From contig JAFEAP010000023.1 of NCBI GenBank assembly GCA_018266355.1, forward strand, positions 151,758 to 183,757: 32,000 bases of DNA. Direction: 5' to 3'. The translations under genes and the position numbers were made by a program. The notes below the pieces were generated by a model. The model was given only the letters and a program-made list of their open reading frames with translations, ran no database searches and was not told where the DNA came from. Below are positions 2,363 through 26,453 of this stretch, piece after piece. The DNA is from Bdellovibrionales bacterium. Lineage in GTDB: Bacteria; Bdellovibrionota; UBA1018. Within the stretch, counting starts at the first letter, position 1. Every line of letters starts with the position of its first letter.

Positions 2363-3235
2363 TTAGTCGTTCTTTGCGGGCAGGCGCCAGATCCCGTACC
2401 CGTCGGCATCGAACTCGAAAGGTTCGAGTTCGTCGTTGCCGTACTTTTCGTGGATCTTGAGAAGCGCGTCCACGCGGCCGACGGAAAGCTTCCACTCGTC
2501 GTCCCCGTCGAGGAGCATCTTCCGGCGCGCTTCGAGGAACGCTTTCATCCACGTGAATTCGTCCGCGCCGCGCGCGGGCGTGGCGCCGCCTAAGCCCTCC
2601 TTCGTCCGCTTCACGAGTTCCGCGATGCCCTCACCGTAACCTTCGCCGTGCTGGACGAAGGAGTCGTAGATGACGAGCCAAGACCAGACGTGCTTCAGGC
2701 CGAGTTTTTTCGCGAGTCGGGCGGAGGGTTTGAAGTAGCGCCGCTCGGCGACGGCGTCCTGGGCTCCGCGGAAGTCCGCATCGTGTTCGAGAGCCTTCAC
2801 CGCGGCCGCGAACCCCCGCGCTTCGAGGCGGCGCACGTTCTCGGGACAGCCGATTTTCTCGTCGAACGCGTCTTCCATCACGGCGCGAAAATCGTGAAGG
2901 GGATTTCCCGGATGGATGCGGTCGTACTCGGCGAGGAGCTCCCCGCCGTCCTGGCAGGTCGTGAAACCGATCTTTCCGAAGGTGATCCCGCGTTTATCGG
3001 AATCGCGGAGCCGCTCGACGTAGGCGTACTGGGGCAGCGGCGTCGAGTTCTCGAAGAGGGTGGTGATCTGCTCGATGATCGCGCGTTTCTCCTCCGGATC
3101 GGTGATCGCGGCGGGCTCCCGATCGGCGACGTGCGCGCAGCCGGAGAGGAGGGAGACGAAGGCGATCGAGAGCGGCCCGAGGCCGCGGGGAAATCTCACC
3201 TTCCCAGGATAAGGTGCTGGCGACTCCCCCTGCAA
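2363..3235 (-). CDS. GH46 chitosanase-like lipoprotein
   Basis: LFENSTPLPQYAYVERLRDSDKRGITFGKIGFTTCQDGGELL matches the GH46 catalytic-core pattern (ENS Glu, downstream Asp, RG.T.G..GFT). Lipobox is VSLLSGC. The track start at 3235 is a TTG. A GTG at 3199 would give a cleaner lipoprotein leader (VRFPRGLGPLSIAFVSLLSGC). Confidence 0.8.
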   Translation of the reverse strand: MQGESPAPYPGKVRFPRGLGPLSIAFVSLLSGCAHVADREPAAITDPEEKRAIIEQITTLFENSTPLPQYAYVERLRDSDKRGITFGKIGFTTCQDGGELLAEYDRIHPGNPLHDFRAVMEDAFDEKIGCPENVRRLEARGFAAAVKALEHDADFRGAQDAVAERRYFKPSARLAKKLGLKHVWSWLVIYDSFVQHGEGYGEGIAELVKRTKEGLGGATPARGADEFTWMKAFLEARRKMLLDGDDEWKLSVGRVDALLKIHEKYGNDELEPFEFDADGYGIWRLPAKND

Positions 3236-3768: not shown

Positions 3769-3792
3769 AAAATTTCGGATCGCAGTGCGTGA

Positions 3793-6162
3793 TTATCGTA
3801 CGATCGTGATCGTTTTCGTAGAAATATCTCCTTCTAGATCTTGAAGAGTGACGCTGAAACGATCAGTCATCATGTTGTTTGAAGTTGGCTGGTAGGTCAA
3901 AGTGCCATCGTGATTTTGAACAACTAGCCCGTACTGTCCTTGTGTAAAGGTTTTAATTGAGACGACGGTATTTGATTTTTTTCGACAAAAATCGGGCACG
4001 GGATCAATAGTCACAGATTTTCGCCGCCAGTGAACTGCTTGGTCTGGAATGGTTTTGAGAAGATCCAAGTCAACAACGCGAAGCAGCTCTGCCTTTGTGA
4101 TTTCAAGTTCGTTTGTTTTCTCAGTCGAATCTTTCAACAATCTGGTGATCGTGGCTCGAAGATTAAACAACTCCAAGACAGCTAATATCTTTTGCTTTTC
4201 GTCGGAGCTATTTGGTCGACGTCTCATGCACGCCCGGCCTTTAAGAGTGGCTTCAATTAACTTCGCCTCTATGAGGAGAATATCGCGGCCTACCCGGGGT
4301 TTTGCTTTATAACTAGTTTCAGCAACGGCTTTAATGGCATCGATAAGTAGCTTAGAGGATGGATTGAAAGTCTCAAGAACTTGATTATTTCTGACTACCT
4401 GAACGTTATTTGGAATATCCATTATAGGGATTTGGACTAAAAAGAAGCTCTTCGAAACAGGCCGGATGTCGCCGTTATCCGTAATGAGACCGAAGCTTGG
4501 CGCGAAACTAGCCTGACCCACAACTTCACCCTCAGAATCGACCAGTTGAATCTTTCCCTCGGCGCTGGCTTCATACGGAGTGGTAGTTCCAGCAGGAAGA
4601 AAATAGGCAGAAAGTAGTTGAACTGTGTTGGTTTCCGAGACGAATCCGGAAATTACCATCACCATTGGATCAGATGGGGAAATTAAAAGCCTTTGAAACA
4701 GCGAAGAATACTCACTTGAGGAGATCCATCTGCCAGTGAGATTTTCTCGGAACCTAAGGCTTCCTTGCCCCATGAGATCAGCCGCATCCAAGATGGGCTG
4801 ATTTTGGTCGACCCAAAACGAGTTTACAGTTGCCGCGTTGTACGCGTGGCCTATGCCAAATAGGTGTGCTACCTCATGTGCCGTTGCCGACCAAAAATTA
4901 GTTCGAACAAGGGCAGAATGAGGTTGGAAGAGTGATTGGCCCGGGATCGGGGCGGGCGCCATCCCCGCTGCGTCGAGTGCATGATCGTCGAAATATTGGT
5001 CGGAAACCAATCCAATCGCGACATTGGCGTTTGTGGAATTTCTCTGGCTCATTACAGCTCGAAGTTCCAGTTGTCCTAGATCTTCTTCGATGGCGTCGTT
5101 TCCAAGAAGGTTGTCCGAGTCTAATTTAGTCGATGCCGCGACTGAAGATCCTACTGAACTGAAGACGCTTCCTTTCGCAACTGGATACATTCCTTCGAGT
5201 AATGGCGTAGCCATCGCCACATGAGTTTGAACATCGTTTAAATCCGGACCATTTCCTGTTCCCACGATGGGAAAATAGCTTAGATCGATTGAGGAAGTTC
5301 TTTTTACTCGGATTGTCTTTTCGATCGATGCATCGCTAATGCCCTCGCTAAAGGTCTTGATTGACAACCTAGTTGCCGTGATGTCGGCCACTGACACCGG
5401 GGAAAAGGTGACGTATTTCCCCGAATAATCTTGAGCCGAACTTAGGGTTAGTGATCGAAGTGTCGACGTGGTTTCACCGAGGGAGAGACTAACGTTTATG
5501 TTGATGGGCCGCGCGATGGCGGGTCCGTTTATGAGCGACACCTTCGCGGTGATTGCTGCCGCTTTGTCTAGAACTAAATCGTAGTCGGCGGTACTGCCAG
5601 GCAGCTTCGCGTTTGGGACTGCTTGAGTCACCGTAACGTCGGAAATTGTTATTTCCGGATCGGAGCTCGGGGTCGGAGATGGAGTAGGGCTAGGGATAGG
5701 CGAAGGTTGCGGGCCAGGACCTTGAACGAAAATGCTTCTAAAATTTAACCAGATGTCTTTAGCGGAGTTGGTCGGAAGGAGACCATTAGTGCAGGAGAGC
5801 CGATTTGCGAATCCGGTGATGTGATTCGTCCCCGGCACGAGATTCAGTGGAGTTACTTCGCTATTCGCGGATTGAAGAACGCAATACAAATTTCCAATTT
5901 CCGTAAGGTCGAGCGTGATGTCTATGTACGTGTCGACGAGCTCGCCATTTAGTGGCGACATTTCGAAATATGTACTCGCGAAACTTTGGCCGCCCGGCCA
6001 ATAGGGATTGGCGACGGAGGATAAGAAAATCAGGGCGCCATCAAAGAAATAAGGCGCGTCTACCGAATCTATCAGGAGGCTGTAAGTGGTGGGTGGATTC
6101 GACGGAACGGTCGCGAAATAGCGTCTCCGGAAAATGCCCTGGCTGGTCGTGACCGCTGACAT
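3793..6162 (-). CDS. Large multidomain zinc metalloprotease (metzincin motif HEVAHLFGIGH) with a Pro/Ser/Thr linker and a C-terminal cadherin/Big_9-like domain; possibly a pseudogene (see leader ORF)
   Basis: 789 aa. Carries an HExxHxxGxxH motif (TAHEVAHLFGIGHAY), a PSPIPSPTPSPTPS linker, and a C-terminal GLVVQNHDGTLTYQPTSNNMMTDRFSVTLQDLEGDISTKTITI typical of Ig/cadherin-like repeats. The annotated Met has no signal peptide. Confidence 0.75.
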   Translation of the reverse strand: MSAVTTSQGIFRRRYFATVPSNPPTTYSLLIDSVDAPYFFDGALIFLSSVANPYWPGGQSFASTYFEMSPLNGELVDTYIDITLDLTEIGNLYCVLQSANSEVTPLNLVPGTNHITGFANRLSCTNGLLPTNSAKDIWLNFRSIFVQGPGPQPSPIPSPTPSPTPSSDPEITISDVTVTQAVPNAKLPGSTADYDLVLDKAAAITAKVSLINGPAIARPININVSLSLGETTSTLRSLTLSSAQDYSGKYVTFSPVSVADITATRLSIKTFSEGISDASIEKTIRVKRTSSIDLSYFPIVGTGNGPDLNDVQTHVAMATPLLEGMYPVAKGSVFSSVGSSVAASTKLDSDNLLGNDAIEEDLGQLELRAVMSQRNSTNANVAIGLVSDQYFDDHALDAAGMAPAPIPGQSLFQPHSALVRTNFWSATAHEVAHLFGIGHAYNAATVNSFWVDQNQPILDAADLMGQGSLRFRENLTGRWISSSEYSSLFQRLLISPSDPMVMVISGFVSETNTVQLLSAYFLPAGTTTPYEASAEGKIQLVDSEGEVVGQASFAPSFGLITDNGDIRPVSKSFFLVQIPIMDIPNNVQVVRNNQVLETFNPSSKLLIDAIKAVAETSYKAKPRVGRDILLIEAKLIEATLKGRACMRRRPNSSDEKQKILAVLELFNLRATITRLLKDSTEKTNELEITKAELLRVVDLDLLKTIPDQAVHWRRKSVTIDPVPDFCRKKSNTVVSIKTFTQGQYGLVVQNHDGTLTYQPTSNNMMTDRFSVTLQDLEGDISTKTITIVR

Positions 6163-11387: not shown

Positions 11388-12560
11388 CTAGTTCGGAAGC
11401 TTCGTGACGAGATCCGCGCGGACCCAAGCCGTGCGATCGGAAGAACCGATGCGCGGGCTTTCGATCTTCATCCATCCGTCCTTCTCTTCGACGAGATTCG
11501 CGACGGCGGAGCGGTCGAGCGTCTGGACGGCGGTTCCCTGCATTCCGGGCGAGGCGCGGAGCACGGCGCGCGGCACGCGGACGATCACCGTCGTCCGGAC
11601 GTTCTCGGCGCGGACGGCGGAGTTCGCCTTCGACCGGATCGAATCGGCTTCGGTCGGGGCGGACGGAGCGGAGGGCGCGATCACCGGCGAAAGCGCTTGT
11701 TTGCCCTCGTGATAGAGGTAGATGCCCGAACCGATCGCGAGGACGATCGCGACCCAAAGCGCGATCATCGGACGCAGGCTCGCGCGGTATTCGGAGACGG
11801 CCTTCTCGGAAGCGAGCGTCGACTCGATGATCGGGTCGACGGACGAGCTCGTGTCGATCACTTCGACGGCTTCCGGCGGCGGGTTCATCACGGTCACGTC
11901 GACTTCCATGTCGTCGATCGCTCCTTCGGCCGAGATCGCGTTCACGGTCGGGATTTCGTCGATCGCGTCGTCGTCGAGCTCGGACGGGAACGCGCGCTCG
12001 ATCAGGTCGATCGGGGTGACCGTCGGCTTCAGCAGGAACGCGGGCGGCTTCGCGTAGGCGAAGACCGGGGGCGCGGCGGCGACGTCGTCTTCGATCGCGT
12101 TCGCGTCGGCGATCGCGATGGATTCGAAAGAGGGCACGAACGGCGGCGGAGCGCTCGGGCGGGTCACGATCGCATCCATCGCCATGTTCATCGTCATCAT
12201 CGCCGCGTTCGGCGGCGGCGGCGTCGCGGATCGGGCGGACGGAGACGGCGCGGGCGCGATCGCGTCGATCTTCGCCGCGATCTTCGTCGCGTTCGAGAGT
12301 TTGTCAGTCAGATCGCGGATCTGCGATTCCATCGATTGGATCTTCGTCGTCGCGTTCGCGGTCTGGGTGAGCCGGAGTTCGACTTCGAGCTGGGCTTCTT
12401 CCTCGAGGCGGCGCGCCTTCACATAATCGGCGAGAACCGCGCTCCGATGGACGAGCGCCATACCTTTGCACTTCGCGCAGCGGACGTAGGCCTTCTTCGT
12501 GTTCTCGAAGTCGATGCCGGCGGTGACCAGTTCTTCGCAGTGAGGGCAGTTCCAACGCAT
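11388..12560 (-). CDS. MJ0042-type zinc-ribbon protein with coiled coil, one TM helix and a C-terminal SH3-like domain
   Basis: Start taken as ATG 12560 (MRWNCPHCEELV...VRCAKCKG), with GGAG about 8 nt upstream. Coiled coil EEEAQLEVELRL...IRDLTDKL. TM helix MIALWVAIVLAIGSGIYLY. C-terminal tail is SH3b-like (...EEKDGWMKIE...AWVRADLV). Confidence 0.7.
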   Translation of the reverse strand: MRWNCPHCEELVTAGIDFENTKKAYVRCAKCKGMALVHRSAVLADYVKARRLEEEAQLEVELRLTQTANATTKIQSMESQIRDLTDKLSNATKIAAKIDAIAPAPSPSARSATPPPPNAAMMTMNMAMDAIVTRPSAPPPFVPSFESIAIADANAIEDDVAAAPPVFAYAKPPAFLLKPTVTPIDLIERAFPSELDDDAIDEIPTVNAISAEGAIDDMEVDVTVMNPPPEAVEVIDTSSSVDPIIESTLASEKAVSEYRASLRPMIALWVAIVLAIGSGIYLYHEGKQALSPVIAPSAPSAPTEADSIRSKANSAVRAENVRTTVIVRVPRAVLRASPGMQGTAVQTLDRSAVANLVEEKDGWMKIESPRIGSSDRTAWVRADLVTKLPN

Positions 12561-12783
12561 GGTTCTTCTCCAGTTCCTATCTTCTAGGATCGAAGAAGGA
12601 GGGGATCGGAACAATCGGTAGAATCTGCCTCTATATAATGAGGACGACGGGGCAATTTCTGCCGAGCGGGAGTCCGCGTTTTCTCCGTACTGGACTCCGG
12701 TGAGGTCGAATATAACGCGATAAGTCAAATCTCTGACCCCGAACCCCCGATGGGGCTCGTTTACCGCTTATCCCGGAGTTTTT

Positions 12784-13122: not shown

Positions 13123-13914
13123 TTACGTGCCCGTAGGAGATTCGACCGACGGCGGTAACGCCGTGGCCGACGGGCCCGCGGGCCCGGCCGTTTCGTCGAA
13201 GATCCGAATGACGACGCGGCGATTGCGATCGTTCGCGGTCGTCTCGTCGACGGCGGCCGGATCGCGTGCGGGCTCGACTTCCGGCCGCGTGTCCGCATAA
13301 CCGATCGCCACCAGGCGCTTCGGATCGAAACCGTGGTCGATGAACGCGCGCACGACGCGCGCGGCGCGGGCGCTCGAGAGTTCCCAGTTCGAAGGATACG
13401 GACCGGAGAGGATCTTCCGCGAGTCGGTGTGCCCTTCGACGGCGACCTTGAACTGCTTGTGTTCGGCGGTTTGGATACGGGAAATCTCGGCGAAGAACGG
13501 TTCGAGGGTCTTCGCGCCTTCGGGCGAAATCTCCGACGAGAGCGTGTCGAAGAAGGTCGTCGATTGGAAGACGAGCGAGACGCCGTCGGCGCCGAAGCGC
13601 ACGGCGGCTTCCTTCTCGAGGCCGTTTTTCTCGATCACTTGGTGGAGGAAACGCGCGTACTCGGCGTTCGCCGACTTGAAATCGCCGCCGAACTGCTTCG
13701 CGACCGACTCGCGCACCTTCTCGTACTTCGTCGCATCGAGCTTCGCGAACGAGAAGAGCATGATGAAGAAGCCGCAGAGGAGCGTCATGATGTCCGCGTA
13801 GGACATCAGCCAGTTCGACTCGTCGTGGCCGGCGGCGTGGAGATACGGATCGATCTCCGGGTGCCGGCTCTGCTCGACGACTTCGGGTTGCTTCTTTCTA
13901 TCCAGCCAGCCCAT
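13123..13914 (-). CDS. motB: Flagellar-type stator protein MotB (OmpA-like peptidoglycan-binding C-terminus)
   Basis: 263 aa. NWLMSYADIMTLLCGFFIMLF carries the conserved channel Asp. The C-terminus VEGHTDSRKI...SNWELSSARAARVVRAF...GYADTRP is an OmpA/MotB PG-binding motif. Confidence 0.9.
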   Translation of the reverse strand: MGWLDRKKQPEVVEQSRHPEIDPYLHAAGHDESNWLMSYADIMTLLCGFFIMLFSFAKLDATKYEKVRESVAKQFGGDFKSANAEYARFLHQVIEKNGLEKEAAVRFGADGVSLVFQSTTFFDTLSSEISPEGAKTLEPFFAEISRIQTAEHKQFKVAVEGHTDSRKILSGPYPSNWELSSARAARVVRAFIDHGFDPKRLVAIGYADTRPEVEPARDPAAVDETTANDRNRRVVIRIFDETAGPAGPSATALPPSVESPTGT

Positions 13915-13921
13915 ATCGGAT

Positions 13922-14704
13922 TTACGCCGCCTTCTTCAGGACGCGTTCGCCCGGGAGGAGGAACGAGTTCAGCCCTTCGCGCATCGCGACCGGGTTCACT
14001 TGGGACTTCAGCATGACCGCGCCTTCCATCATGATCCGGCGGAGGTTCATCTCCTCGCGCGTGCGCTCGGTCAGGTTCTCCGCGATCGGGAGGAAGACGA
14101 GGTTCGCGAGCGCGATCCCGTAAAGGGTGCCGATGAGGCCGACGGACATCGCCGGGCCGATCAGCGACTGGGAATTCGGTTGGCCGATCTTCTGGAGGAC
14201 GCCGATCATCCCGAGCGTCGTCGCGAGGAGGCCGAACGCCGGCGGGAAACGCCCGATCGTGCGGAACATGTTCGCCTCGAGCAGGTAACGGCCCTCGATC
14301 GTCTTGATCCGCTGTTCGAGCGTCGAACGGATCTCCTTGTCGGTGAGGACGCCGCCGGCGACGAGCGTGACGGCTTCCTTCAGGAACGGGTGCGAGATCG
14401 CGTTCGCGGCTTCCTTCAGCGTCGGCAGGCCCATCGCGGCCTTGCGATTCAATTCGAGGAGCTGCGAGATCGCGCCCTGGTAGTCGACGGCGTTCCGGCC
14501 GAGCACCCGGTTCACGAAGACTTTCGTGAGGGCGAAAATCTTGGAAAGCGGGAAACTGATCGACGTCGCGGCGAACGTCCCGCCGATGACGATCAGGATG
14601 CCGTGAAAATCGAGGAAGAACCCGAGATTGTCCGTCGTGGCGGTCATCGCGCCGTACATCACGCCGAGTCCGACGAGGAGCCCGAAGAGGGAAGAGGGAT
14701 TCAT
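13922..14704 (-). CDS. motA: Flagellar-type stator protein MotA/PomA (MotA/TolQ/ExbB channel family)
   Basis: Start taken as ATG 14704 (MNPSSLFGLLVGLGV...), forming an ATGA overlap with the upstream gene's stop. Four TM helices. Conserved prolines occur in PPAFGLLATTLGMIG and LVFLPIAENL. A charged cytoplasmic loop lies between TM2 and TM3. Confidence 0.9.
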   Translation of the reverse strand: MNPSSLFGLLVGLGVMYGAMTATTDNLGFFLDFHGILIVIGGTFAATSISFPLSKIFALTKVFVNRVLGRNAVDYQGAISQLLELNRKAAMGLPTLKEAANAISHPFLKEAVTLVAGGVLTDKEIRSTLEQRIKTIEGRYLLEANMFRTIGRFPPAFGLLATTLGMIGVLQKIGQPNSQSLIGPAMSVGLIGTLYGIALANLVFLPIAENLTERTREEMNLRRIMMEGAVMLKSQVNPVAMREGLNSFLLPGERVLKKAA

Positions 14705-15201
14705 GCGGCCTTCTTTCCGTCGCCCTTCAAGGCGACCTTCCAAAGCTGGTACTGGGTATCGACGTAGTTATCGTCGAGGCTGCGCAGGCGCTTCGCGAGC
14801 TCCTGGGTGCAGCGGCGGTAGAACTCGCACTTAGCGGTTTCGTTCTGGGCGAGGAAGCGCTGGAACACTTCCGCGGGAAGATGGAACGCCTTCACGGCGG
14901 TCAGCGCCTGGACGGTGGCCGAACGGGGAGCATCGTCGACGAGGGACATCTCGCCGAACGAATGGCCCGCCCGAAGCTGGGCGATCTCGACGAGGTCGCC
15001 CGAGGCGCGGTTCGTCTTGAAGATTCCGACCTGGCCTTCCATGACGAAGAAGAGCCCGCCCGAAGGCTCCCCTTCGATCACCATGAGGGTGAGCGCGTCG
15101 TAGGTGAGGATCTCGCCGCTCTTCAGGAACGTCTCGAGGTCCGCGTCCGAAAACGCGGCGAGGAGCTTCACTTCGCGGAGGTGGGCTGCGGTCATGTTCA
15201 T
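14701..15201 (-). CDS. Stand-alone cyclic-nucleotide-binding (CAP_ED) protein without a DNA-binding domain
   Basis: 166 aa. Beta-roll with an intact phosphate-binding cassette (FGEMSLVDDAPRSATVQA) and a C-terminal helical tail with no HTH. ATGA overlaps occur at both ends (15198-15201 and 14701-14704). Confidence 0.85.
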   Translation of the reverse strand: MNMTAAHLREVKLLAAFSDADLETFLKSGEILTYDALTLMVIEGEPSGGLFFVMEGQVGIFKTNRASGDLVEIAQLRAGHSFGEMSLVDDAPRSATVQALTAVKAFHLPAEVFQRFLAQNETAKCEFYRRCTQELAKRLRSLDDNYVDTQYQLWKVALKGDGKKAA

Positions 15202-17570
15202 GAGGCCTTCCGGATCGAAGCGACGTTATTCGAGGCGTAAGCCGCGAAGAGGCGGTCGTTCACGTCGGCGAGGTTCACGAGCGTGTCCTGGGCCATCATC
15301 TTCACGCGGTTCAGCACCTTGCGTTCGAGCGCACCGTAGATGTCGCGGCTCGGGTTCTGCATGACCGCGAGTTCCTCCTCGAGGTCGCTCACGAGGTCGC
15401 GCGGACACTTCGCGAAGACGGAACCGCGGATGTCGTCGCGGCAACCCTTCAGGAAGTTCAGCAGCTCGTCGTGGCGCAGGCTCAGGATCACCTCGAGCAG
15501 CTGGCCGTCCGGGAGGAAGGCGAGCGTGTCGACGGATACGAGCTTGTGCTTAACGACCCGGGCGCTCTCCGGGTTGTTCATCTCGAGGTTGCGGACGACC
15601 GATTGCTGCACGGTCGGTTCGCTGCGCTCGAGCAGGTTCACGAGCACCTCGCTGCCCGGCAGGGCTTCGGTGTTCAGCCGCGGGTTTTCCATCCGCTTCC
15701 GCTTGAGGGCGTTCGCGACGTTCTGGATGTAGTCGCGCGGGAGGTAGTCGATCCGCGAAAGCTCGGCGAGGAGTTTCAAGCGGGTCGCCTCGTCGATCGC
15801 GCCGAAGATCGCCGCCCGCTTCTGGTTATCGCACTGGGTGAGCACGATCGCCTTCACGGTGAGGGACTCGTTCCGCACGAGTTCCATGATCTGCATGCCG
15901 TCCATCTCCGCGAGGTAGTCGAACTGGGCGGAGGAGCGGGAAGCGACGACGGCCATCTTGCCGGCGACCGTCCGATGATGGAGCTTCTTCAGGAGTTCGA
16001 GTTTCTCGGCGTCGTCGAGTTCGATCGGCGTGCGCGCGTAGAATTCCATCAGCTCGTTCAAGTCGTGCTGGAGCGAGGGATCGCGAAGGAGATCGAGGAC
16101 TACGCTTTCGCCGAAGATCGAGAGGTAAGCCGACGTCGTCTCGATGCCTTCCTCGGTGAGGATCCGGCCGAAGACGTATTTAGCCACGCGCGGTTGCTCG
16201 GCGAAAATGCCCATGAGTTCGTCGCGGAGGCGATCGATCTCATAGCGGCGCCCGATCGAGGATCCGCCGTTCGACGGCGGGGCTCCTTCGGGCGGGGCGA
16301 GGTTCGCGAGCGTCGCCTCGCCGCCGGAAGCCGGCAGCGCCGGCATCGGAGCGGCGGCCATCGGCATGTTCTTCGTCTCGATCGTCGTCTTCGATCGAAG
16401 CGTCGAGAAGGCGATGAAGCCGAGGAGGCCGAGGATGATCGCGGCGAAAATCGAGGCGTAGGTGCGCATCGTCTTGAATTCGGTGGTGAGCGCGTCTCCG
16501 TTTTCGATGCGTTCGATCTTCTCGAAGTGCTGGAAGTTCTCGGTTCGCTGGTCCTTCGTCACGTTCGATTCGCGGTCGGTGCGGTTCGTCGAGTCCGAGC
16601 TCGTCGTCCGGTTGTTCGCTTCGGAGGTCGACGCCGTGCGGTTATCCGTGGTGTTGTGGTTCTGTTGGTTGTAGTTTTCCGTGCGTTTCGATTCGAGGGA
16701 TTCCTTCGAATCCCGGCTCTGGGTCTTCGCGTAGGTCTTTCCGTCGGCGCCGACGTAAGTCGGCATACCGGCGAACTCGGATCCTTCGTTCGCGATGCGC
16801 GGAAATTTCATCGCCTTTGCGCGGAGGTCGGAATTCTTGAAGTCGCCGACTTTCAGCTGGGCCATCTCGAGGATGTTCGCACGGTCGCCGTCCGGAATCG
16901 CCTCCTCCATGAGGAGGGTCGCGCCGATCGATTTCACCCGCACGGCGACGCCGGCGGTCTCGAAGTACTCGCCCGCGGTGCCGTAGCCGGCTTCCTCGGC
17001 GTTCACGAGTTCGGTCTGGAGCTCGTAGTCGGAAAGCATGCAGTCCTTCGGGCAAACCTTCGCGATGACTTCCTCGATCGCCCCCTTGTACTGCTTCGTG
17101 ATCCGGTCGCGGAGTTCGGTGACTTTCGCCGCGCTTTCGGCGGGCGACGGGAAGCGCGCGGTTTTCGTCGCGACTTTCACCGGGTAGTCGAGGGTCTCGA
17201 GGTAGCGGTTCACGAGGTCGAGGACCCGCGTGCGGGTGTTCGGGCCGATTTTCTCGTCGATGAGGACTTTCACTTCGGCCGAGGCCGGTTCGAGCTCGCC
17301 GCGCGCGCCGGCGTCGACTTCGTCGAATCCCGGGGCGATCGTGTCGGCGGAGGCGACGTCGACGTCGACGTCGATCGAGAGGAGTTTGCACTCGTCGGAG
17401 CAGTACTTCATGAAAACGGGATCGACGATCGCGTGGATCGCGGTGCGCGCGGTCTTCTTCACTGATTCGATCGCGGCGGTCGTGCCGGAATCCTTGGCGT
17501 GGGCCGGGGCGGCAAAGACCGCCGCCGAGGCGAGGAGGGATAAATAGAGGATCGACGACTTCGTTTTCAT
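15198..17570 (-). CDS. Membrane-anchored FliG-like protein: Sec leader, two exported Cys-pair modules, low-complexity linker, one TM helix, cytoplasmic FliG-like N/M/C domains
   Basis: 790 aa. Leader MKTKSSILYLSLLASAAVFAAPAHA/K. TM helix at residues 369-391 (YASIFAAIILGLLGFIAFSTL). The C-terminal ~330 aa align by eye to the FliG middle and C-terminal domains, including an LKG...R....EE torque-helix pattern. Confidence 0.85.
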   Translation of the reverse strand: MKTKSSILYLSLLASAAVFAAPAHAKDSGTTAAIESVKKTARTAIHAIVDPVFMKYCSDECKLLSIDVDVDVASADTIAPGFDEVDAGARGELEPASAEVKVLIDEKIGPNTRTRVLDLVNRYLETLDYPVKVATKTARFPSPAESAAKVTELRDRITKQYKGAIEEVIAKVCPKDCMLSDYELQTELVNAEEAGYGTAGEYFETAGVAVRVKSIGATLLMEEAIPDGDRANILEMAQLKVGDFKNSDLRAKAMKFPRIANEGSEFAGMPTYVGADGKTYAKTQSRDSKESLESKRTENYNQQNHNTTDNRTASTSEANNRTTSSDSTNRTDRESNVTKDQRTENFQHFEKIERIENGDALTTEFKTMRTYASIFAAIILGLLGFIAFSTLRSKTTIETKNMPMAAAPMPALPASGGEATLANLAPPEGAPPSNGGSSIGRRYEIDRLRDELMGIFAEQPRVAKYVFGRILTEEGIETTSAYLSIFGESVVLDLLRDPSLQHDLNELMEFYARTPIELDDAEKLELLKKLHHRTVAGKMAVVASRSSAQFDYLAEMDGMQIMELVRNESLTVKAIVLTQCDNQKRAAIFGAIDEATRLKLLAELSRIDYLPRDYIQNVANALKRKRMENPRLNTEALPGSEVLVNLLERSEPTVQQSVVRNLEMNNPESARVVKHKLVSVDTLAFLPDGQLLEVILSLRHDELLNFLKGCRDDIRGSVFAKCPRDLVSDLEEELAVMQNPSRDIYGALERKVLNRVKMMAQDTLVNLADVNDRLFAAYASNNVASIRKAS

Positions 17571-18334
17571 TATTTCCCCTCGCTTTCGGAGGCGAGACCC
17601 CGGGTCGCGCGTTTGCGATCGAGGTATTTCTTCAGGGCCAAGTTCTGCGGATTCAGCCGGAGCGACTGCTGCCAGGACCGGACGGCGAGCTCGTAGCGGC
17701 CGAGGCGGTCGAGAAGCGTGCCGCGCATCTCATAGAGTTTAGGGGCGGTCGGGAAGTCGACGAGGAGGTCCTCGACCTCGAGGAGCGAGGCTTCGTAACG
17801 GCCTTCACGGTAGAGACGTTTGATGCGGTCGAGACCGGCGAGGTAGCTCTTATCCGCGTGCGGCGTCGAATCGGCGGAAGGCATCACGCCGAGGGTCTGT
17901 TCGATGTCGTTCCGTTCGCCCTCGAACTCGCCGCCGTTTTTCGGGAACGATTCGGTGATTTCGCGGTCGGCGATGACCGGCTTCTTGTTCCGGTAGGGAT
18001 CGTCGAGGTCGGCCGTGGTTTCGTCCGCGCCGGCCGCACGGGTCGGCAGCGAGACTTCGTCGAGCTTCGTCGACTGGTCGGGGAAGGTGACTTCGAAACT
18101 GCGGTCGCCCTTACGCGTGCGGAAAACGGTTCCGGTCTCGGCGGTCGCGGCCGCGCCGCCGCCGGCTTGGTACCCTTCGAAAGGATTCGTGATCGGACCG
18201 TCGGATTTTTTCTCGTTCGTGGCGAAGACCGTGCTCATCGTGGAACAAGCGGGGACGGCGGCGAGCACGACGAGCGTCGTCGTGAAGGCTCGGGTCATCT
18301 CGGCTAGGTTTTTCTCGGGTTTGCGGTTCGCCAT
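17570..18334 (-). CDS. TPR-repeat lipoprotein
   Basis: 254 aa. Leader with a lipobox-like LAAVPAC. C-terminal TPR-like repeats (YREGRYEASLLEVEDLL, LYEMRGTLLDRLGRYELAVRSWQQSLRLNP). The stop shares one nucleotide with the next gene's ATG (TAATG at 17570). Confidence 0.75.
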   Translation of the reverse strand: MANRKPEKNLAEMTRAFTTTLVVLAAVPACSTMSTVFATNEKKSDGPITNPFEGYQAGGGAAATAETGTVFRTRKGDRSFEVTFPDQSTKLDEVSLPTRAAGADETTADLDDPYRNKKPVIADREITESFPKNGGEFEGERNDIEQTLGVMPSADSTPHADKSYLAGLDRIKRLYREGRYEASLLEVEDLLVDFPTAPKLYEMRGTLLDRLGRYELAVRSWQQSLRLNPQNLALKKYLDRKRATRGLASESEGK

Positions 18335-18353: not shown

Positions 18354-19475
18354 TTAAAACAGGGCACTGATGCCCAATCCATATTCGATCCCGGAAACGC
18401 TTTTCTCGGTCCCGGTGATGAGCGTCGTCGCCTTCGGCCGGTAACCGAGCGTCGTGCTCACGGCCCAGTGCTTCGCGAGCCGCCATTCGTAGCCCGCGCG
18501 GAAGACTCCGCCGAGGTAGCCCGACGCGTACGTGCCGCCGACCCCGGTGACGATCGTACCGCGCACCTGGTTGTAGTTCTCTTCCGCGCCGATCAGGTTC
18601 CACGCGTGGACGAAGAGCATCGTCATGTTGAAGGAACCGTAGATGCGGGCGCCGGTATCCGTCGTGGTCGACTCGACCGGCGATCCGGAGAGCGTACGGA
18701 CGTCGGTGATGTAGTCGAGTTCGAACCCGACTTCCTTTTTCCGGTTGTCGTAGCGTTCGACGAGGCGGAAACCGAGGCTCAGGCAACTCGAGCGCTCCCC
18801 CGCGTCCGGTTCGTTCAGGTAAGAGATCGTCCCGCGGTATTGGAGCGTCGGGATGTATTCGTTTTGTTTCACGGAAGCTTCCATCTGGGAGAAATCGACG
18901 CCTCGACGGTACGCGGAAGCGCGGGAGGTCTCCGAATTGTAACTGCGCGACCAGACGACGCTTCCCGTAGCGGCGTCGGCCGTCGTCATCGAGAGCACCA
19001 TTCCGGTGGGTTGGAACGAGAACGCGAGATCCATGAAGTTTTCGATGCCCTGGGCCTTCGCGATGCGCGCGAGTTCGTTCGGATTCAACTCCGCGGAAGT
19101 CACGAGGATCTGGTCTTGGTTCAGCGTCGCCTTGCGTGCGCGGCACGGAAGACACTGCACGACGCGCGTCTTCGTCGTGGCGAGGATCTTTTCGGTGACG
19201 ACGAGTTCGAGGTGGTTCCGGAACGACGGCGGGATGTTCTCGCTCATCGCGATGTTCCGGATCGCGAGATCCTTCAATCCGCTCACGCTTCCGTTTTTCA
19301 GGTCGTATTCGAAATCGGAGAGGAGGTCGCCGAGGACATCGTAGAAATTCCGCGTCTCGGTTTGGGAAGCCGCGTGCGCGCGCGCCGGCATCGCCGACGT
19401 GAGTACAGCGAGGGTGGTAGCGAGTGCAGTGATGAAGCGGCGATTCTGAAGATTCATAGAGGGTCTTTCGGACAC
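18354..19475 (-). CDS. Probable outer-membrane beta-barrel protein with an N-terminal periplasmic alpha/beta domain
   Basis: 373 aa. Sec leader ...LAVLTSAMPARAHA/A. The C-terminal half has alternating-polarity strands and ends in GLGISALF (terminal aromatic, OMP-like). GTG start at 19475 with GAGGA upstream. An ATG at 19457 is an alternative start. Confidence 0.7.
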   Translation of the reverse strand: MSERPSMNLQNRRFITALATTLAVLTSAMPARAHAASQTETRNFYDVLGDLLSDFEYDLKNGSVSGLKDLAIRNIAMSENIPPSFRNHLELVVTEKILATTKTRVVQCLPCRARKATLNQDQILVTSAELNPNELARIAKAQGIENFMDLAFSFQPTGMVLSMTTADAATGSVVWSRSYNSETSRASAYRRGVDFSQMEASVKQNEYIPTLQYRGTISYLNEPDAGERSSCLSLGFRLVERYDNRKKEVGFELDYITDVRTLSGSPVESTTTDTGARIYGSFNMTMLFVHAWNLIGAEENYNQVRGTIVTGVGGTYASGYLGGVFRAGYEWRLAKHWAVSTTLGYRPKATTLITGTEKSVSGIEYGLGISALF

Positions 19476-19602: not shown

Positions 19603-20607
19603 ATGAGGACGGGTGAAGGACTCCGGAATCGCATGGGAAACCGTCTTCTCCGCCCGACATCGACGAAATTCGTCAGCGCCAGCTTCCTGGCGGCGCTCGT
19701 CGGCGGCCTTTCCTCGTGCGCGGTCCTCCAACCGAACGTGATCGAACCGACGGCCGACGCGCCCGCGCCGCCCGCCGCCGTGGAGGCGCCCGGTTACGCC
19801 GGCGTTCCGCATCCGCTCGGACTCCAAATCGGCGACGTCGCCGCGCTCTTCGCGACGCCCGGTGCGCCGAAGCGCGGAAGCGACGAGATGAAGACCTGCG
19901 CGGCCGACTACGATGCGCTCGCGAAGGCCACTAAGGCCAAGGACGAACTCAAACAAGGACTCCTCGAACTCGTCCGTAAGGAGCCGATCCGTTATCACTG
20001 GTGCTTTTACTCGAAGATCCTCGACCTCGAGGAGAAACTCCGCGGGGCCCAGATGCTCGACGATCGCCAGCGTGCGGTCGTCGAAGCGTATCGATTCCTC
20101 GCGCCGCTTTCGCGCGTTTTCTACCGCGAATTCCACGACTCCCGGTACCTGCGGTGGGCGGTCTCGTACTACCGCCGCGCGAGCGAACTCGCGTTCTATC
20201 GGCGGGTCGAGACTTCGCCGGGATTGACCCAGGAACTCGTCGGCGCGGGCGGCGACGAGACCACGCGAGGAATCACCGAGAAGGCGACGAGCGTGCTCGA
20301 AAAGTACGGGATCATCGTCCCGGAACGCCTCCAGCCCGGGCAGAGTCCCGACGAGATTCCGAAGGGTGACGCCCTTCCGAGCGACGCTTACGTGAATACC
20401 GGTTCAGGCGTGCTCGATAGCACGGCGACCGGCAGCGAAGCCAAGCCCGGCGCAGGAGCTGAAGATCCGACGGCGTCCACCGCCGCCTCTAATCCTCCTG
20501 CGGCAGCTCCGGACTCCGTCGTTCCGGACGCTCCCGCCGAAACGTCGCGCGCGCCCGCGGCTGAGAGTTCGTTTCCGGCGCTGACGAACCCGCTGCAAGG
20601 CGAATAG
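19603..20607 (+). CDS. Lipoprotein of unknown function with a Pro/Ala/Ser-rich C-terminal tail
   Basis: 334 aa. Lipobox LVGGLSSC. No recognisable domain. An alternative ATG at 19633 has a better Shine-Dalgarno (GAAGGA). Confidence 0.65.
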   Translation: MRTGEGLRNRMGNRLLRPTSTKFVSASFLAALVGGLSSCAVLQPNVIEPTADAPAPPAAVEAPGYAGVPHPLGLQIGDVAALFATPGAPKRGSDEMKTCAADYDALAKATKAKDELKQGLLELVRKEPIRYHWCFYSKILDLEEKLRGAQMLDDRQRAVVEAYRFLAPLSRVFYREFHDSRYLRWAVSYYRRASELAFYRRVETSPGLTQELVGAGGDETTRGITEKATSVLEKYGIIVPERLQPGQSPDEIPKGDALPSDAYVNTGSGVLDSTATGSEAKPGAGAEDPTASTAASNPPAAAPDSVVPDAPAETSRAPAAESSFPALTNPLQGE

Positions 20608-26278: not shown

Positions 26279-26283
26279 TTCTC

Positions 26284-26421: not shown

Positions 26422-26453
26422 AAAATCCTTAAAGCGCTCTTCGCGTTTTCCTT

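What the first reader, a model, noticed from the sequence alone, without database searches (positions are those of the whole stretch)
15198..17570. Natural FliF-like/FliG-like chimera: Sec-exported duplicated Cys-pair modules, one TM helix, then a full FliG-like domain with a conserved torque-helix charge pattern
The order read from the sequence is leader peptide (residues 1-25, AHA/K), an exported region, one TM helix (residues 369-391) and a ~390-aa cytoplasmic region. I aligned the C-terminus by hand against FliG as I remember it (T. maritima). FLKGCRDDIRGSVFAKCPRDLVSDLEEELAVMQNPSRDIYGALERKVLNRVKMMAQ pairs with ALKGASDELKEKIFKNMSKRAAALLKDELEYMGPVRLKDVEEAQQKIINIIRRLEE. The LKG, the Arg and the acidic pair that contact MotA all line up. 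Upstream, KLVSVDTLAFLPDGQLLEVILSLRHDELLNFLKG parallels the MFVFEDI..LDDR.IQ.VLREVD...LA.ALKG block. LVRNESLTVKAIVLTQCDNQKRAAIFGAIDEATRLKLLAELSRI parallels the ARM-M EHPQTIALIL...AA.IL..LPE.L..EV..RIA block. The exported part holds two ~100-aa modules (about residues 41-141 and 150-257). Each has a C-x3-C pair (CSDEC 57-61, CPKDC 173-177) and each ends in (A/K)(R/M)(F/K)FP-like KTARFP / KAMKFP. Their helix/strand alternation is compatible with the alpha-beta-beta-alpha-beta ring-building motif of FliF/SctJ (inference). Engineered FliF-FliG fusions are known to work in Salmonella. A natural single-pass version with a cleavable leader, encoded beside its own stator, would be new as far as I know.
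Basis: partly seen in the sequence, partly recalled or inferred. Interest (0 to 1): 0.8.

Follow-up and report, generated by a model that had tools for sequence, protein, structure and literature searches.

The report
Natural FliF–FliG fusion beside its stator
One 790-residue membrane protein joins the two flagellar rotor proteins FliF and FliG in reduced form, and it sits in a conserved operon with its own MotA/MotB ion motor and two outer-envelope proteins but no other flagellar gene, so it is probably an undescribed flagellar-type rotor-stator machine.

Summary
ORF 15198..17570 (-) encodes a signal peptide, two homologous exported modules with conserved Cys pairs, a disordered linker, one TM helix and a cytoplasmic FliG-like region.

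- **FliG part:** FliG_M and FliG_C pass Pfam's cut-offs. The AlphaFold model aligns with whole FliG chains.
- **Exported part:** each module folds alpha-beta-beta-alpha-beta. The best PDB matches are all FliF MS-ring chains, but TM-scores are low. Weak profile alignments point to FliF RBM3 and FliF's FliG-binding tail.
- **Context:** 75 species-level genomes (Bdellovibrionota-type MAGs, including the namesake of GTDB class UBA1018) keep the order exported beta-barrel-like protein, TPR lipoprotein, fusion protein, cNMP-binding protein, MotA, MotB. The last four junctions are translationally coupled. Two distant relatives keep the same five core genes in another order.
- **Corrections:** the basic residue sits one position before FliG's Arg column, which is acidic here. 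The FliM-binding motif is lost. No flagellar structural gene lies within 10 kb.

Best reading: a rotor with a dedicated stator, coupled to the outer envelope. Ring formation is untested. A relative also has a full flagellar gene set, so an accessory role stays open. I found no prior description.

The parts
18354..19475 (-). First gene of the operon (373 aa). It has a signal peptide, an N-terminal periplasmic domain with an invariant CxxC (C108, C111) and a C-terminal half that looks like an outer-membrane beta-barrel.
   Evidence: Present directly upstream in nearly every locus with enough flank. The C-terminal residue is Phe in 56 of 61 relatives. Matches to OM beta-barrel families (DUF3575, OMP_b-brl, Autotransporter) are weak and below cut-off. 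Homologues also lie in the two distant loci L077 and L080. The beta-barrel assignment is an inference.
17570..18334 (-). TPR protein (254 aa), probably a lipoprotein. Its stop codon overlaps the start of the fusion gene (TAATG).
   Evidence: TPR_2 scores 26.9 bits, just under its cut-off of 27, and other TPR models match weakly. The family consensus around the conserved Cys is ...LSGCS, a lipobox-like motif. The gene is conserved upstream of the fusion gene and in L077 and L080. Junction sequence.
15198..17570 (-). The finding itself: a 790-aa FliF-like/FliG-like fusion protein.
17496..17570 (-). Residues 1-25: Sec-type signal peptide (K2, K4, hydrophobic core, AHA|K).
   Evidence: Family heuristics: core median 16 residues, small-x-small motif in 106 of 112. 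No SignalP run was possible.
17148..17489 (-). Residues 28-141: exported module 1, alpha-beta-beta-alpha-beta. It carries C57-x3-C61, an invariant PGF in the beta1-beta2 loop, and ends in ...RFP.
   Evidence: AlphaFold secondary structure. hhalign to module 2. The best profile alignment is to the start of Salmonella FliF RBM3 (about FliF 230-303), P 0.004, and 0 of 60 column shuffles reach its score.
16791..17147 (-). Residues 142-260: exported module 2, same fold. It carries C173-x3-C177, a conserved EEAQYG loop, and ends in ...KFP.
   Evidence: It aligns to FliF 233-438 (all of RBM3, with the beta-collar as a gap), P 0.04; 1 of 60 shuffles reaches its score.
16515..16790 (-). Residues 261-352: low-complexity, length-variable linker rich in S/T/N/E/R, predicted disordered.
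   Evidence: pLDDT is below 50 for 263-274 and 278-352. The columns are variable and gapped in the family alignment.
16395..16514 (-). Residues 353-392: conserved periplasmic juxtamembrane helix (EKIERVENGDA...; the motif begins at residue 350) running into the single TM helix (370-392).
   Evidence: Helix 355-392 in the model. E350, E353, R354 and E356 are invariant. Hydropathy.
15906..16268 (-). Residues 435-555: helical region covered by the fold alignment to the FliG N domain. Residues 446-474 resemble FliF's C-terminal FliG-binding helix.
   Evidence: Foldseek aligns 309-321 columns of 310-331-residue FliG chains. HMMER to full-length FliG 3hjl covers query 489-767. hhalign places 445-474 on FliF 529-558 with P 0.012; the re-cut segment aligns 446-474 to 530-558 and 4 of 100 shuffles reach its score. 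Pfam FliG_N does not match.
15591..15905 (-). Residues 556-660: FliG middle domain plus the conserved M-C linker (NPRLNTEALPGSEVL).
   Evidence: PF14841 at E 1.2e-9. The EHPQR motif is reduced to E568...R606, with a conserved S569-L-T571 in place of HPQ.
15222..15590 (-). Residues 661-783: FliG C-terminal domain with the LKG motif and the torque helix K721-S-P-[K/R]724-[D/E]725-L-V-x-E729-L-E731-E732-E733-L.
   Evidence: PF01706 at E 3.6e-11. Column frequencies. Alignment to T. maritima FliG.
14701..15201 (-). 166-aa cyclic-nucleotide-binding protein with an intact phosphate-binding cassette (FGEMSL..D.PRSAT). ATGA overlaps join it to both neighbours.
   Evidence: PF00027 at E 8e-18. Family conservation. 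Junctions. The gene is absent in one subclade of 8 loci.
13922..14704 (-). MotA (260 aa from the ATG at 14704), flagellar-stator type.
   Evidence: PF01618. Best NCBIfam models are MotP, PomA and MotA, all below the equivalog cut-offs. C. sporogenes MotA E 4e-34, PomA E 4e-31. It is the most conserved gene of the cluster, at 59-93% identity.
13123..13914 (-). MotB (263 aa): TM helix with the conserved Asp41 (SYADIMT), plug region, and an OmpA-like peptidoglycan-binding domain.
   Evidence: MotB_plug and OmpA domains. PDB MotB alignment. Family conservation.
19603..20607 (+). Divergently transcribed 334-aa protein with a lipoprotein-type signal (GLSSC). It is a conserved neighbour and only a possible member.
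   Evidence: Matched in most loci that have upstream flank, usually adjacent and on the opposite strand. A Cys following the N-terminal hydrophobic stretch is conserved in the family alignment. No homologue was found in L077 or L080.

Best explanation
**What it is.** The gene encodes an inner-membrane protein that combines, in one chain, a reduced FliF and a whole FliG. Its parts in order are:
1. a cleavable leader;
2. two disulfide-stapled RBM3-like ring-building modules;
3. a long flexible linker;
4. one TM helix;
5. a FliF-C-like helix;
6. FliG N-, M- and C-like domains.

**How it most likely works.** The MotA/MotB pair encoded two genes downstream is its private stator.
- *Shown by homology:* MotB carries a plug, the channel Asp and a peptidoglycan-binding domain, so the stator is fixed to the wall and driven by ions.
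- *Inferred:* the MotA cytoplasmic domain pushes on the acidic torque helix of the FliG_C-like domain, as in the flagellar motor.
- *Inferred:* the protein oligomerises into a membrane ring, through its RBM-like modules and through FliG-type stacking. That ring turns, or is driven stepwise.
- *Inferred:* its periplasmic modules couple the movement to the co-conserved TPR lipoprotein and beta-barrel-like protein of the outer envelope.
- *Inferred:* the small cNMP-binding protein modulates the motor.

**What it is not.** The system has no type III export gate, rod, or FliM/FliN-binding motif, so it is not a flagellum. It most likely arose from a duplicated fliF-fliG gene pair by fusion and reduction.
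For: **Identity**
- FliG_M and FliG_C are above Pfam's cut-offs, and PDB FliG proteins match.
- Foldseek on the full model puts FliG first (E 6.6e-7, 317 columns of a 328-residue chain), then FliF.
- The periplasmic model has two alpha-beta-beta-alpha-beta units, and its top five PDB matches are all FliF.
- The internal duplication is significant.
- Weak profile matches run in the same order as FliF: both modules to RBM3, and residues 446-474 to the C-terminal FliG-binding helix.

**Link to MotAB**
- The gene order is the same in 75 species-level genomes.
- The start and stop codons overlap at the TPR/fusion, fusion/cNMP and cNMP/MotA junctions.
- Two distant relatives, a 611-aa one-module form and a 986-aa form, keep the beta-barrel-like protein, TPR protein, MotA, MotB and the fusion protein in a different order. 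This argues for selection on co-occurrence rather than inherited synteny.
- The periplasmic module is rare, with about 150 clusters among 1.84 billion representatives. All ten relatives scanned carry FliG_C, FliG_M or (below cut-off) MgtE_N matches in their C-terminal part.

**Stator type**
- MotA is closest to C. sporogenes MotA and to PomA. MotB has the plug, Asp41 and an OmpA domain.
- The charged residues are conserved on both presumed faces but deviate from the canonical positions on both. MotA has K/R87-K/R88 and E/D98. The torque helix has K/R724, D/E725 and E731-E733. That fits a private interface.

**Separate from the flagellar core**
- No FliF or canonical FliG ORF lies within about 10 kb in any of 76 loci, and the 32-kb window has no flagellar gene.
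- FG-1, a MAG of class UBA1018, encodes a full canonical set (FliF, FliG, FliM, FliN) and at least six K02556 MotA-type genes (PMC13200544 Table S5). Whether FG-1 itself carries the cluster was not shown.
Against: - Ring formation was not tested, because no multimer prediction was available.
- The Foldseek TM-scores to FliF are only 0.3-0.45, and the alpha/beta sandwich also matches OsmC-like and ribosomal proteins at E around 1e-3.
- Pfam YscJ_FliF and FliG_N do not match, even at E 10.
- The roughly 90-residue disordered linker between the modules and the membrane cannot transmit torque.
- The canonical Arg of the torque helix and the Arg (R90-type) of MotA are both displaced. In the two distant lineages the charge patterns differ again.
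- Relatives of the hosts are flagellated, so a role within the flagellar motor is not excluded.
- No experiment exists for any member.
Confidence: 0.5

Rival explanations
1. **Flagellar accessory.** The five or six proteins are lineage-specific parts of the host's own flagellar motor, which is thick and probably sheathed. They would form an extra membrane-anchored FliG-like ring plus an outer-envelope scaffold that recruits or positions one of several stator types. This would parallel PflA/PflB/FlgP in Campylobacterota and MotX/MotY/FlgT/FlgO/FlgP in Vibrio.
For: - Cells of class UBA1018, to which FG-2 (locus L037) belongs, carry one unusually thick polar flagellum (PMC13200544).
- The one-module relatives include a MAG protein labelled Persicimonas sp., and the cultured species Persicimonas caeni is described as flagellated.
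- Known stator scaffolds also combine TPR-type proteins, lipoproteins and outer-membrane proteins (my own knowledge of those systems).
- MotA here is of the flagellar type.
Against: - No known flagellar scaffold contains a FliG or RBM domain.
- The FliM-binding EHPQR motif is lost.
- The cluster is never next to fliF or fliG in 76 loci.
- FG-1, a MAG of the same class, has at least six MotA paralogues, so a dedicated stator is plausible.
- A second FliG ring at the flagellar base has no obvious geometric place.
Confidence: 0.2
2. **Ton/Tol-like force transducer, not a ring.** One or a few copies of the protein are gripped by the rotating MotA pentamer through the FliG-like domain. The long flexible periplasmic linker is put under tension or wound up. 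That pulls on the distal Cys-stapled modules bound to the TPR lipoprotein and the beta-barrel-like protein. The energy would serve an outer-membrane process such as transport, envelope remodelling or adhesin movement.
For: - The architecture resembles TonB and TolA: a single TM helix, a roughly 90-residue disordered and length-variable linker, and a distal folded domain.
- Obligatory co-occurrence with an OM-type beta-barrel-like protein and a TPR lipoprotein, in three lineages.
- A flexible tether can carry tension but not torque (inference).
Against: - Both domain families in the protein are ring formers in every known case.
- Coupling through a cytoplasmic FliG-MotA contact is transient and gear-like in flagella, not a grip.
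- MotB has the plug and peptidoglycan-binding domain typical of stators that dock around a rotor.
Confidence: 0.2
3. **Stator decoy or parking site.** A membrane-anchored FliG mimic binds and holds MotAB units, perhaps under cAMP/cGMP control, to regulate how many stators reach the flagellum.
For: - A cNMP-binding protein is encoded between the fusion gene and motA.
- The torque-helix charges are kept.
- The hosts' relatives are flagellated.
Against: - This does not explain the two conserved exported modules, the outer-envelope partners, or the strict pairing with one particular MotAB paralogue.
- A subclade lacks the cNMP gene but keeps everything else.
Confidence: 0.07
4. **Decaying remnant.** The gene is a leftover of a duplicated fliF-fliG pair with no present function.
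For: It is highly diverged from FliG: TIGR00207 scores 47.7 bits against a cut-off of 226.7.
Against: - The ORF is intact at 750-830 aa in more than 100 relatives at 43-82% identity, with 56 invariant columns.
- The operon and its translational coupling are conserved.
Confidence: 0.03

Closest known systems
Flagellar MS-ring/C-ring pair FliF + FliG, and the engineered FliF-FliG fusions of Salmonella and Vibrio (PDB 8z4d; bioRxiv 10.1101/2023.02.06.527414; PMC11481574)
   Same: - The domain order is the same as an end-to-end fliF-fliG fusion: periplasmic ring-building modules, a TM helix, a FliF-C-like helix, then FliG N, M and C.
- A flagellar-type MotAB acts as partner.
- An acidic torque helix follows an LKG motif.
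   Different: - This fusion is natural.
- A cleavable leader replaces FliF's first TM helix.
- It has two RBM3-like modules without the beta-collar, and nothing recognisable as RBM1 or RBM2.
- A 90-residue disordered linker separates the modules from the membrane.
- There is no export gate, rod, FliM/FliN or EHPQR motif.
- It is encoded away from flagellar genes, together with outer-envelope proteins.
SctJ (PrgK/EscJ/YscJ), inner-membrane ring of the injectisome
   Same: The overall plan of the exported half is the same: signal peptide, two tandem RBM-type modules, a linker, and one C-terminal TM helix. Weak Foldseek matches to needle-complex and CdsD chains were seen.
   Different: - SctJ is a lipoprotein with a short cytoplasmic tail and no FliG.
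- It surrounds an export gate and is not driven by a stator.
- Pfam YscJ_FliF does not match here.
Other 5:2 ion motors that energise the outer envelope: ExbBD-TonB, TolQR-TolA-Pal-CpoB, AglRQS-Glt, GldLM/T9SS
   Same: An inner-membrane ion-driven motor is encoded together with a periplasm-spanning protein, a TPR protein and outer-membrane beta-barrel or lipoprotein partners.
   Different: - Those motors belong to the non-flagellar ('GIT') branch, which typically lacks the plug, and they couple through TM or periplasmic contacts (PMC12505986).
- Here the stator is of the flagellar branch, with a plug.
- The presumed coupling is through a cytoplasmic FliG domain.
High-torque flagellar scaffolds (Vibrio MotX/MotY/FlgT/FlgO/FlgP; Campylobacterota PflA/PflB/FlgP)
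   Same: TPR-type, lipoprotein and outer-membrane components are associated with stators in bacteria with thick or sheathed flagella.
   Different: None of those scaffolds contains a FliG or RBM domain or is fused to a rotor protein. No sequence similarity to them was detected here.
MgtE N-terminal domain (PF03448), the known non-flagellar use of the FliG fold
   Same: The helical repeat fold is the same. Weak MgtE_N matches occur in several relatives.
   Different: The scores are below cut-off. FliG_M and FliG_C fit better. There is no Mg2+ channel, and the partner is MotAB.

Membership tests
FliG (flagellar rotor/switch protein) | FliG C-terminal domain (PF01706) | tested here: met
   E 3.6e-11, 43.7 bits against a cut-off of 23.3, residues 661-762. 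All 8 further two-module relatives scanned match it, 7 of them above the cut-off.
FliG (flagellar rotor/switch protein) | FliG middle domain (PF14841) | tested here: met
   E 1.2e-9, 38.7 bits against a cut-off of 25, residues 560-629.
FliG (flagellar rotor/switch protein) | FliG N-terminal domain (PF14842), which binds the FliF C-terminus | tested here: inconclusive
   There is no Pfam match for residues 430-560, even at E 10. However, Foldseek aligns 309-321 columns of full-length FliG chains, and HMMER to 3hjl starts at FliG residue 46.
FliG (flagellar rotor/switch protein) | Equivalog-level score (TIGR00207) | tested here: not met
   47.7 bits against a cut-off of 226.7. It is a distant relative, not an orthologue.
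FliG (flagellar rotor/switch protein) | EHPQR motif (FliM binding) and MFXF hinge | tested here: not met
   Only E568 and R606 are kept. HPQ is replaced by a conserved S-L-T, and MFVF by a conserved L-V-S-x.
FliG (flagellar rotor/switch protein) | Torque-helix charges (E. coli R281, D288, D289) | tested here: inconclusive
   The acidic pair is kept (E/D732 in 114 of 115, E733 in 112 of 115). The R281 column is D/E in 114 of 115, with K/R one residue earlier in 109 of 115.
FliG (flagellar rotor/switch protein) | Soluble protein of about 330 aa, encoded next to fliF/fliH in a flagellar cluster | tested here: not met
   The protein is 790 aa and membrane-anchored. No flagellar structural gene lies in the window or within about 10 kb in 76 loci.
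FliF / SctJ ring-building-motif proteins (PF01514 YscJ_FliF) | Sequence match to PF01514 | tested here: not met
   No match for the periplasmic domain, even at E 10. A family profile against PDB sequences finds no FliF or SctJ.
FliF / SctJ ring-building-motif proteins (PF01514 YscJ_FliF) | alpha-beta-beta-alpha-beta RBM fold | tested here: met
   It is present twice in the AlphaFold models, with pLDDT mostly above 90.
FliF / SctJ ring-building-motif proteins (PF01514 YscJ_FliF) | Structural similarity to solved RBM rings | tested here: inconclusive
FliF / SctJ ring-building-motif proteins (PF01514 YscJ_FliF) | Assembly into a ring of 24-34 subunits | not testable with these tools
   No multimer prediction and no experiment were possible.
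FliF / SctJ ring-building-motif proteins (PF01514 YscJ_FliF) | FliF-specific features: two flanking TM helices and a beta-collar insertion in RBM3 | tested here: not met
   The protein has a signal-peptide-like N-terminus plus one TM helix. The beta1-beta2 loops are only about 20 residues long.
Flagellar-type MotA/MotB stator (neighbouring genes) | MotA_ExbB domain with closest similarity to flagellar MotA/PomA; MotB with TM Asp, plug and OmpA-like domain | tested here: met
   PF01618, PF13677 and PF00691 match. PDB MotA matches at E 4e-34 and PomA at 4e-31. Asp41 aligns with the channel Asp. The NCBIfam equivalog cut-offs are not reached.
Flagellar-type MotA/MotB stator (neighbouring genes) | Canonical MotA charges (E. 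coli R90/E98; PomA R88/E96) | tested here: not met
   The PomA R88 column is S/A/G, with K/R-K/R two and three residues earlier. The E96 column is variable (N/Q/K), and the next residue is E/D in 67 of 68.

The most novel reading that the evidence does not exclude
This is a stand-alone rotary machine that is independent of the flagellum. It would be a minimal rotor (an MS-ring-like and C-ring-like body made of one polypeptide) turned by a dedicated flagellar-type MotAB. It has no type III export apparatus, rod or filament, and it is wired to outer-envelope proteins. That would be the first non-flagellar use of the FliG-MotA torque interface. It would be either a living analogue of a pre-flagellar 'rotor + stator' stage or a radical reduction of a flagellum.
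Probability: 0.35. Interest if true: 0.95.

Novelty: new variant of a known kind. Interest (0 to 1): 0.8.

Why it matters
**Why it would be new.** As far as I know, the FliG-MotA torque interface is known only inside flagella, and flagellar-type ('FIT') stators are treated as markers of flagellar motility (PMC12505986). A natural single-chain FliF-FliG protein would show that this rotor-stator module can be re-used as a unit. Here it has its own stator and outer-envelope partners, it is conserved in 75 species, and it recurs in a second phylum-level lineage.

**What it could give.**
- The smallest known flagellar-type rotor, convenient for structural and single-molecule work.
- A test case for ideas on how the flagellar motor arose.
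- A candidate for an unknown envelope function in uncultured predatory-type bacteria. One lineage can be enriched magnetically and another has cultured relatives.

**If it is a flagellar accessory instead.** It would then be a new kind of accessory, a second FliG ring.

Tried and rejected
- **Charge-swap idea.** The window MotA has Lys97 at the E. coli E98 / PomA E96 column, and the fusion protein has Asp725 at the R281 column, which looked like a compensating swap. I rejected it because Lys occupies that column in only 9 of 68 relatives (N/Q predominate).
- **Co-variation across lineages.** With only three lineages of MotA and torque helix, the patterns differ and cannot be interpreted.
- **Apparent fusion in L077.** A beta-barrel-like/TPR fusion ORF looked like evidence of physical interaction. 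I rejected it because the ORF contains an internal lipoprotein signal peptide and a garbled stretch, so it is probably two genes joined by a frameshift in a long-read assembly.
- **Pfam searches.** YscJ_FliF and FliG_N give nothing, even at E 10.
- **PDB sequence search.** A family profile finds only FliG.
- **The 373-aa protein.** A profile search against PDB and Pfam gives only sub-threshold beta-barrel hints.
- **Promoter/terminator scan** of the operon: at chance level.
- **Rfam** on the window: no match.
- **Literature.** Six searches for a natural FliF-FliG fusion, a membrane-anchored FliG or a non-flagellar FliG-MotAB system found only engineered fusions.
- **FG-1 proteome.** I looked for family motifs in the FG-1 proteome supplement. 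The stored file is truncated and nothing was found.
- **Second K02410 hit.** The second FliG-type KO hit in FG-1 and FG-2 is not flanked by MotAB KOs and may be the MotAB-less paralogue. This is unresolved.

Full report
**1.

The minus-strand ORF 15198..17570 is real and 790 aa long. It is identical to a protein deposited for a 'Bdellovibrionales bacterium' MAG.

Hydropathy shows two hydrophobic segments:
- residues 5-25, ending in AHA|K;
- residues 370-392.

Cysteines lie at 57, 61, 173, 177, 580, 710 and 722.

Across the homologue alignments (120 sequences, 115):
- The four N-terminal Cys are present in at least 97.5% of sequences. C173 and C177 are invariant.
- Every one of 112 members checked has exactly one TM-like segment after residue 60.
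- Their N-terminal uncharged core has a median of 16 residues, follows about two basic residues, and ends in a small-x-small motif in 106 of 112.

This is heuristic evidence for a cleaved Sec leader; SignalP could not be run. Three relatives have C-x8-C instead of C-x3-C in module 1. That fits a disulfide-closed loop better than a metal site, and it agrees with an exported location.

**2. The two exported modules are true repeats with a ring-building-motif topology**

Profile-profile alignment of residues 28-141 against 142-260 gives probability 96% and E 1.7e-9 over 101 columns. The CxxxC motifs and the terminal FP residues align.

The AlphaFold model built on 115 sequences has mean pLDDT 79, and the exported domain is mostly above 90. 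It shows:

| Unit | Helix | Strand | Strand | Helix | Strand |
|---|---|---|---|---|---|
| Module 1 | H29-56 | E61-72 | E93-105 | H110-124 | E131-138 |
| Module 2 | H143-172 | E177-189 | E202-222 | H227-243 | E247-254 |

After the modules come a disordered stretch (263-352), one long helix (355-392) that includes the TM segment, a second disordered stretch (392-433), and an all-helical region (435-783).

A separate model of residues 26-262 (pLDDT 85) has the same topology.

**3. Fold comparison**

*Full model.* Foldseek against the PDB returns whole FliG chains first:
- 8umx_B at E 6.6e-7, 317 columns of a 328-residue chain;
- 3hjl, 8wiw and 8vib next;
- then Salmonella FliF MS-ring chains (7bk0_B at 3.9e-4, 6scn_A at 7e-4).

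*Periplasmic model alone.* The five best matches are all FliF (8zds_B at 2.1e-6, then 7bk0_B, two 8t8p chains, 6scn_A), each with probability 1.0. Weaker matches to needle-complex and CdsD chains follow.

*Caveats.*
- TM-scores are low: 0.23-0.31 for the two-domain matches and 0.41-0.45 for single RBM3 chains.
- Generic alpha/beta sandwiches (OsmC, ribosomal eS7, CzcD) appear at E around 1e-3.

**4. Sequence-level tests against FliF**

Pfam YscJ_FliF does not match, even at E 10. A family profile finds no FliF in PDB sequences.

I built a profile from nine full-length FliF proteins taken from plasmid and chromid records and ran hhalign against it:

| Query | Aligns to Salmonella FliF | Score | P | Column shuffles reaching the score |
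|---|---|---|---|---|
| Module 1 | about 230-303, the long first helix and first strand of RBM3 | 26.7 | 0.004 | 0 of 60 |
| Module 2 | 233-438, all of RBM3 with the beta-collar as a gap | 20.7 | 0.04 | 1 of 60 |
| Residues 446-474, the first helices after the membrane | 530-558, the C-terminal helix | 17.6-26.4 | 0.012 | 4 of 100 |

. In flagella that C-terminal helix binds FliG_N, which I state from my own knowledge of FliF/FliG structures.

Each hit is weak on its own. Together they run in the same order as FliF and agree with the fold search. I read the exported modules as RBM3-like, without the collar. I treat homology to FliF as probable but not proven.

**5. The FliG part**

- FliG_M (E 1.2e-9) and FliG_C (E 3.6e-11) pass Pfam's gathering scores.
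- T. maritima and Aquifex FliG match at E 1e-9 to 1e-11.
- The equivalog model TIGR00207 scores only 47.7 bits against a cut-off of 226.7. This is therefore a distant paralogue.

- The HMMER alignment puts Arg724 one residue before FliG's conserved Arg. The Arg column itself holds Asp/Glu in 114 of 115 relatives. The acidic pair is conserved as E/D732-E733, and E731 and E729 add further negative charge.
- The FliM-binding EHPQR motif is reduced to E568...R606, with a conserved S-L-T in place of HPQ.
- The MFXF hinge is replaced by a conserved L-V-S-x.

I therefore expect no FliM/FliN C-ring and no CheY-type switching (inference).

**6. The stator**

- The downstream MotA is closest to flagellar MotA of C. 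sporogenes (E 4e-34) and to PomA (4e-31).
- MotB has the channel Asp (D41 in SYADIMT), a plug and an OmpA-like domain.
- In 68 orthologues the PomA R88 column is S/A/G, and a conserved K/R-K/R pair sits two and three residues earlier.
- The E96 column varies, and the next residue is E/D in 67 of 68.

Both presumed contact faces thus keep conserved opposite charges, but in shifted positions. That would fit a private interface (inference).

**7. Context is the strongest evidence for function**

A scan of one genome per species found the family in 75 species. All are Bdellovibrionota-type MAGs. They include the genome UBA1018, which names a GTDB class, and FG-2.

In essentially every locus with enough flank the order is:
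1. 373-aa exported protein, C-terminal Phe in 56 of 61, with weak beta-barrel hints;
2. TPR lipoprotein;
3. the fusion protein;
4. cNMP-binding protein;
5. MotA;
6. MotB.

A divergent lipoprotein gene usually lies upstream. Eight loci forming one subclade lack the cNMP gene only.

In the window the TPR/fusion, fusion/cNMP and cNMP/MotA junctions overlap (TAATG, ATGA, ATGA).

A profile of the exported domain finds only about 150 clusters among 1.84 billion representative proteins. These include one-module forms of 540-620 aa and longer forms of about 970-990 aa. All ten that I scanned carry FliG_C, FliG_M or sub-threshold MgtE_N matches in their C-terminal part.

Three of these distant relatives were examined in context:

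| Relative | Genome context | Neighbours |
|---|---|---|
| 611 aa, one module | 7.5-Mb contig, 67% GC over the 22-kb locus; one relative is labelled Persicimonas sp. | homologues of the 373-aa protein and the TPR protein, then MotA, MotB, then the fusion gene |
| 986 aa | genome with 44% GC over the locus | the same five genes in the same order as the 611-aa form |
| 747 aa | not determined | no adjacent MotAB |

. The order in the first two differs from the order in the window. Five genes kept together in different orders across lineages argues for a functional unit.

**8. Relation to the flagellum**

- No FliF or canonical FliG ORF lies within about 10 kb in any of 76 loci. The 32-kb window holds none either.
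- However, cells of class UBA1018 carry a single thick polar flagellum (PMC13200544).
- The KO table for the related MAG FG-1 lists a full flagellar set (FliF, FliG, FliM, FliN, FliP and others), at least six K02556 MotA-type genes, and a second, weaker FliG hit. I could not show that FG-1 itself carries the cluster.
- Persicimonas caeni is reported as flagellated and gliding (PMC7188933).

If the window organism resembles FG-1, the fusion protein adds to the canonical rotor rather than replacing it, and a dedicated MotAB paralogue is plausible. An accessory role at the flagellar base still cannot be excluded.

**9. Mechanism**

*Shown by homology:*
- a wall-anchored, ion-driven flagellar-type stator;
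- a membrane protein whose cytoplasmic end is a FliG with a conserved charged torque helix;
- an exported end made of two RBM-like modules;
- obligatory outer-envelope partners.

*Inferred:*
- MotA drives the FliG_C-like domain.
- The protein forms a ring, because both of its parental families do, and because continuous drive by a fixed stator needs a closed track.
- The motion or force reaches the TPR lipoprotein and the beta-barrel-like protein.
- The cNMP-binding protein modulates the system.

The main difficulty is the roughly 90-residue disordered linker, which cannot carry torque. This keeps a Ton/Tol-like tension model alive.

I put 0.5 on the dedicated rotor-stator reading, 0.2 on a flagellar accessory, 0.2 on a non-ring transducer, and the rest on a decoy or a relic.

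**10. Novelty**

Six full-text searches found only engineered FliF-FliG fusions and no description of this family or cluster. The recent survey of MotAB diversity treats flagellar-type stators as flagellar (PMC12505986).

I class the finding as a new variant of a known kind: a flagellar-type rotor-stator module in a fused, export-free form linked to the outer envelope. I give a 0.35 chance that it is an autonomous, categorically new machine.

Noticed in passing
window 2363-6162: A low-GC stretch (0.47-0.51, against about 0.63 elsewhere) holds a 789-aa ORF (3793..6162, -) with a Big_9/cadherin-like C-terminus. A GH46 chitosanase-like ORF (2363..3235, -) lies beside it. This may be an acquired island.
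   Followed up: no
window 11388-12728 (-): This ORF has a zinc ribbon, a long disordered region, a TM helix and a periplasmic SH3 domain, and it lies just downstream of MotB. A short match to it recurs on the same strand, in most cases shortly after MotB, in 36 of the 76 loci. It may be a seventh member of the system.
   Followed up: partly
window 18354-19475 (-), residues 108-111: The 373-aa first gene of the operon has an invariant CxxC (QCLPCRA) in its N-terminal periplasmic domain. That domain matches no Pfam or PDB family.
   Followed up: partly
loci L040, L043, L048, L050, L051, L053, L063, L071: One subclade lacks the cNMP-binding gene but keeps all other genes. There the fusion gene is followed directly by motA.
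   Followed up: partly
window 16476-16521 (-), residues 350-365: The periplasmic juxtamembrane helix EKIERVENGDAVQAEL is among the most conserved parts of the protein (E350, E353, R354 and E356 are invariant), and no partner has been assigned to it. The distant two-module relatives carry a different conserved motif (DPYGLEKL) at the same place.
   Followed up: no
proteins P0089-P0091: Three family members have C-x8-C instead of C-x3-C in module 1. This favours a disulfide loop over a metal site.
   Followed up: no
window 10365-11357 (+) and 9745-10368 (+); locus L079 12303-13367: M14 carboxypeptidase and VTT/DedA genes recur a few kb downstream of the cluster in most loci. An M14 peptidase also abuts the MotAB-less paralogue P0145.
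   Followed up: no
PMC13200544 Table S5 (FG-1 genes 02087, 02662, 02687, 02691, 02696; FG-1 04250; FG-2 00640): FG-1, a class UBA1018 MAG, carries at least six K02556 MotA-type genes, several without an assigned MotB. FG-1 and FG-2 each have a second, weaker FliG-type KO hit that is not flanked by MotAB KOs.
   Followed up: partly
window 18362-18375 (-): A terminator-like hairpin (GGGCATCAGTGCCC followed by a T-run) overlaps the 3' end of the first gene of the operon. The number of such sites in the region is at chance level.
   Followed up: no
window 15471-17465 (+) and other long antisense ORFs: Long ORFs lie on the opposite strand of the cluster, for example one of 664 aa. Gene calling on the Logan contig that carries the identical gene (L001) does not list them, so they are probably by-products of the high GC content.
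   Followed up: yes
window 24499-28467 (-): This region holds a spermidine-synthase-like gene, an amine oxidase, DUF350 and two DUF4178 genes, next to an SPFH/Band-7 protein. It is unrelated to the finding.
   Followed up: no
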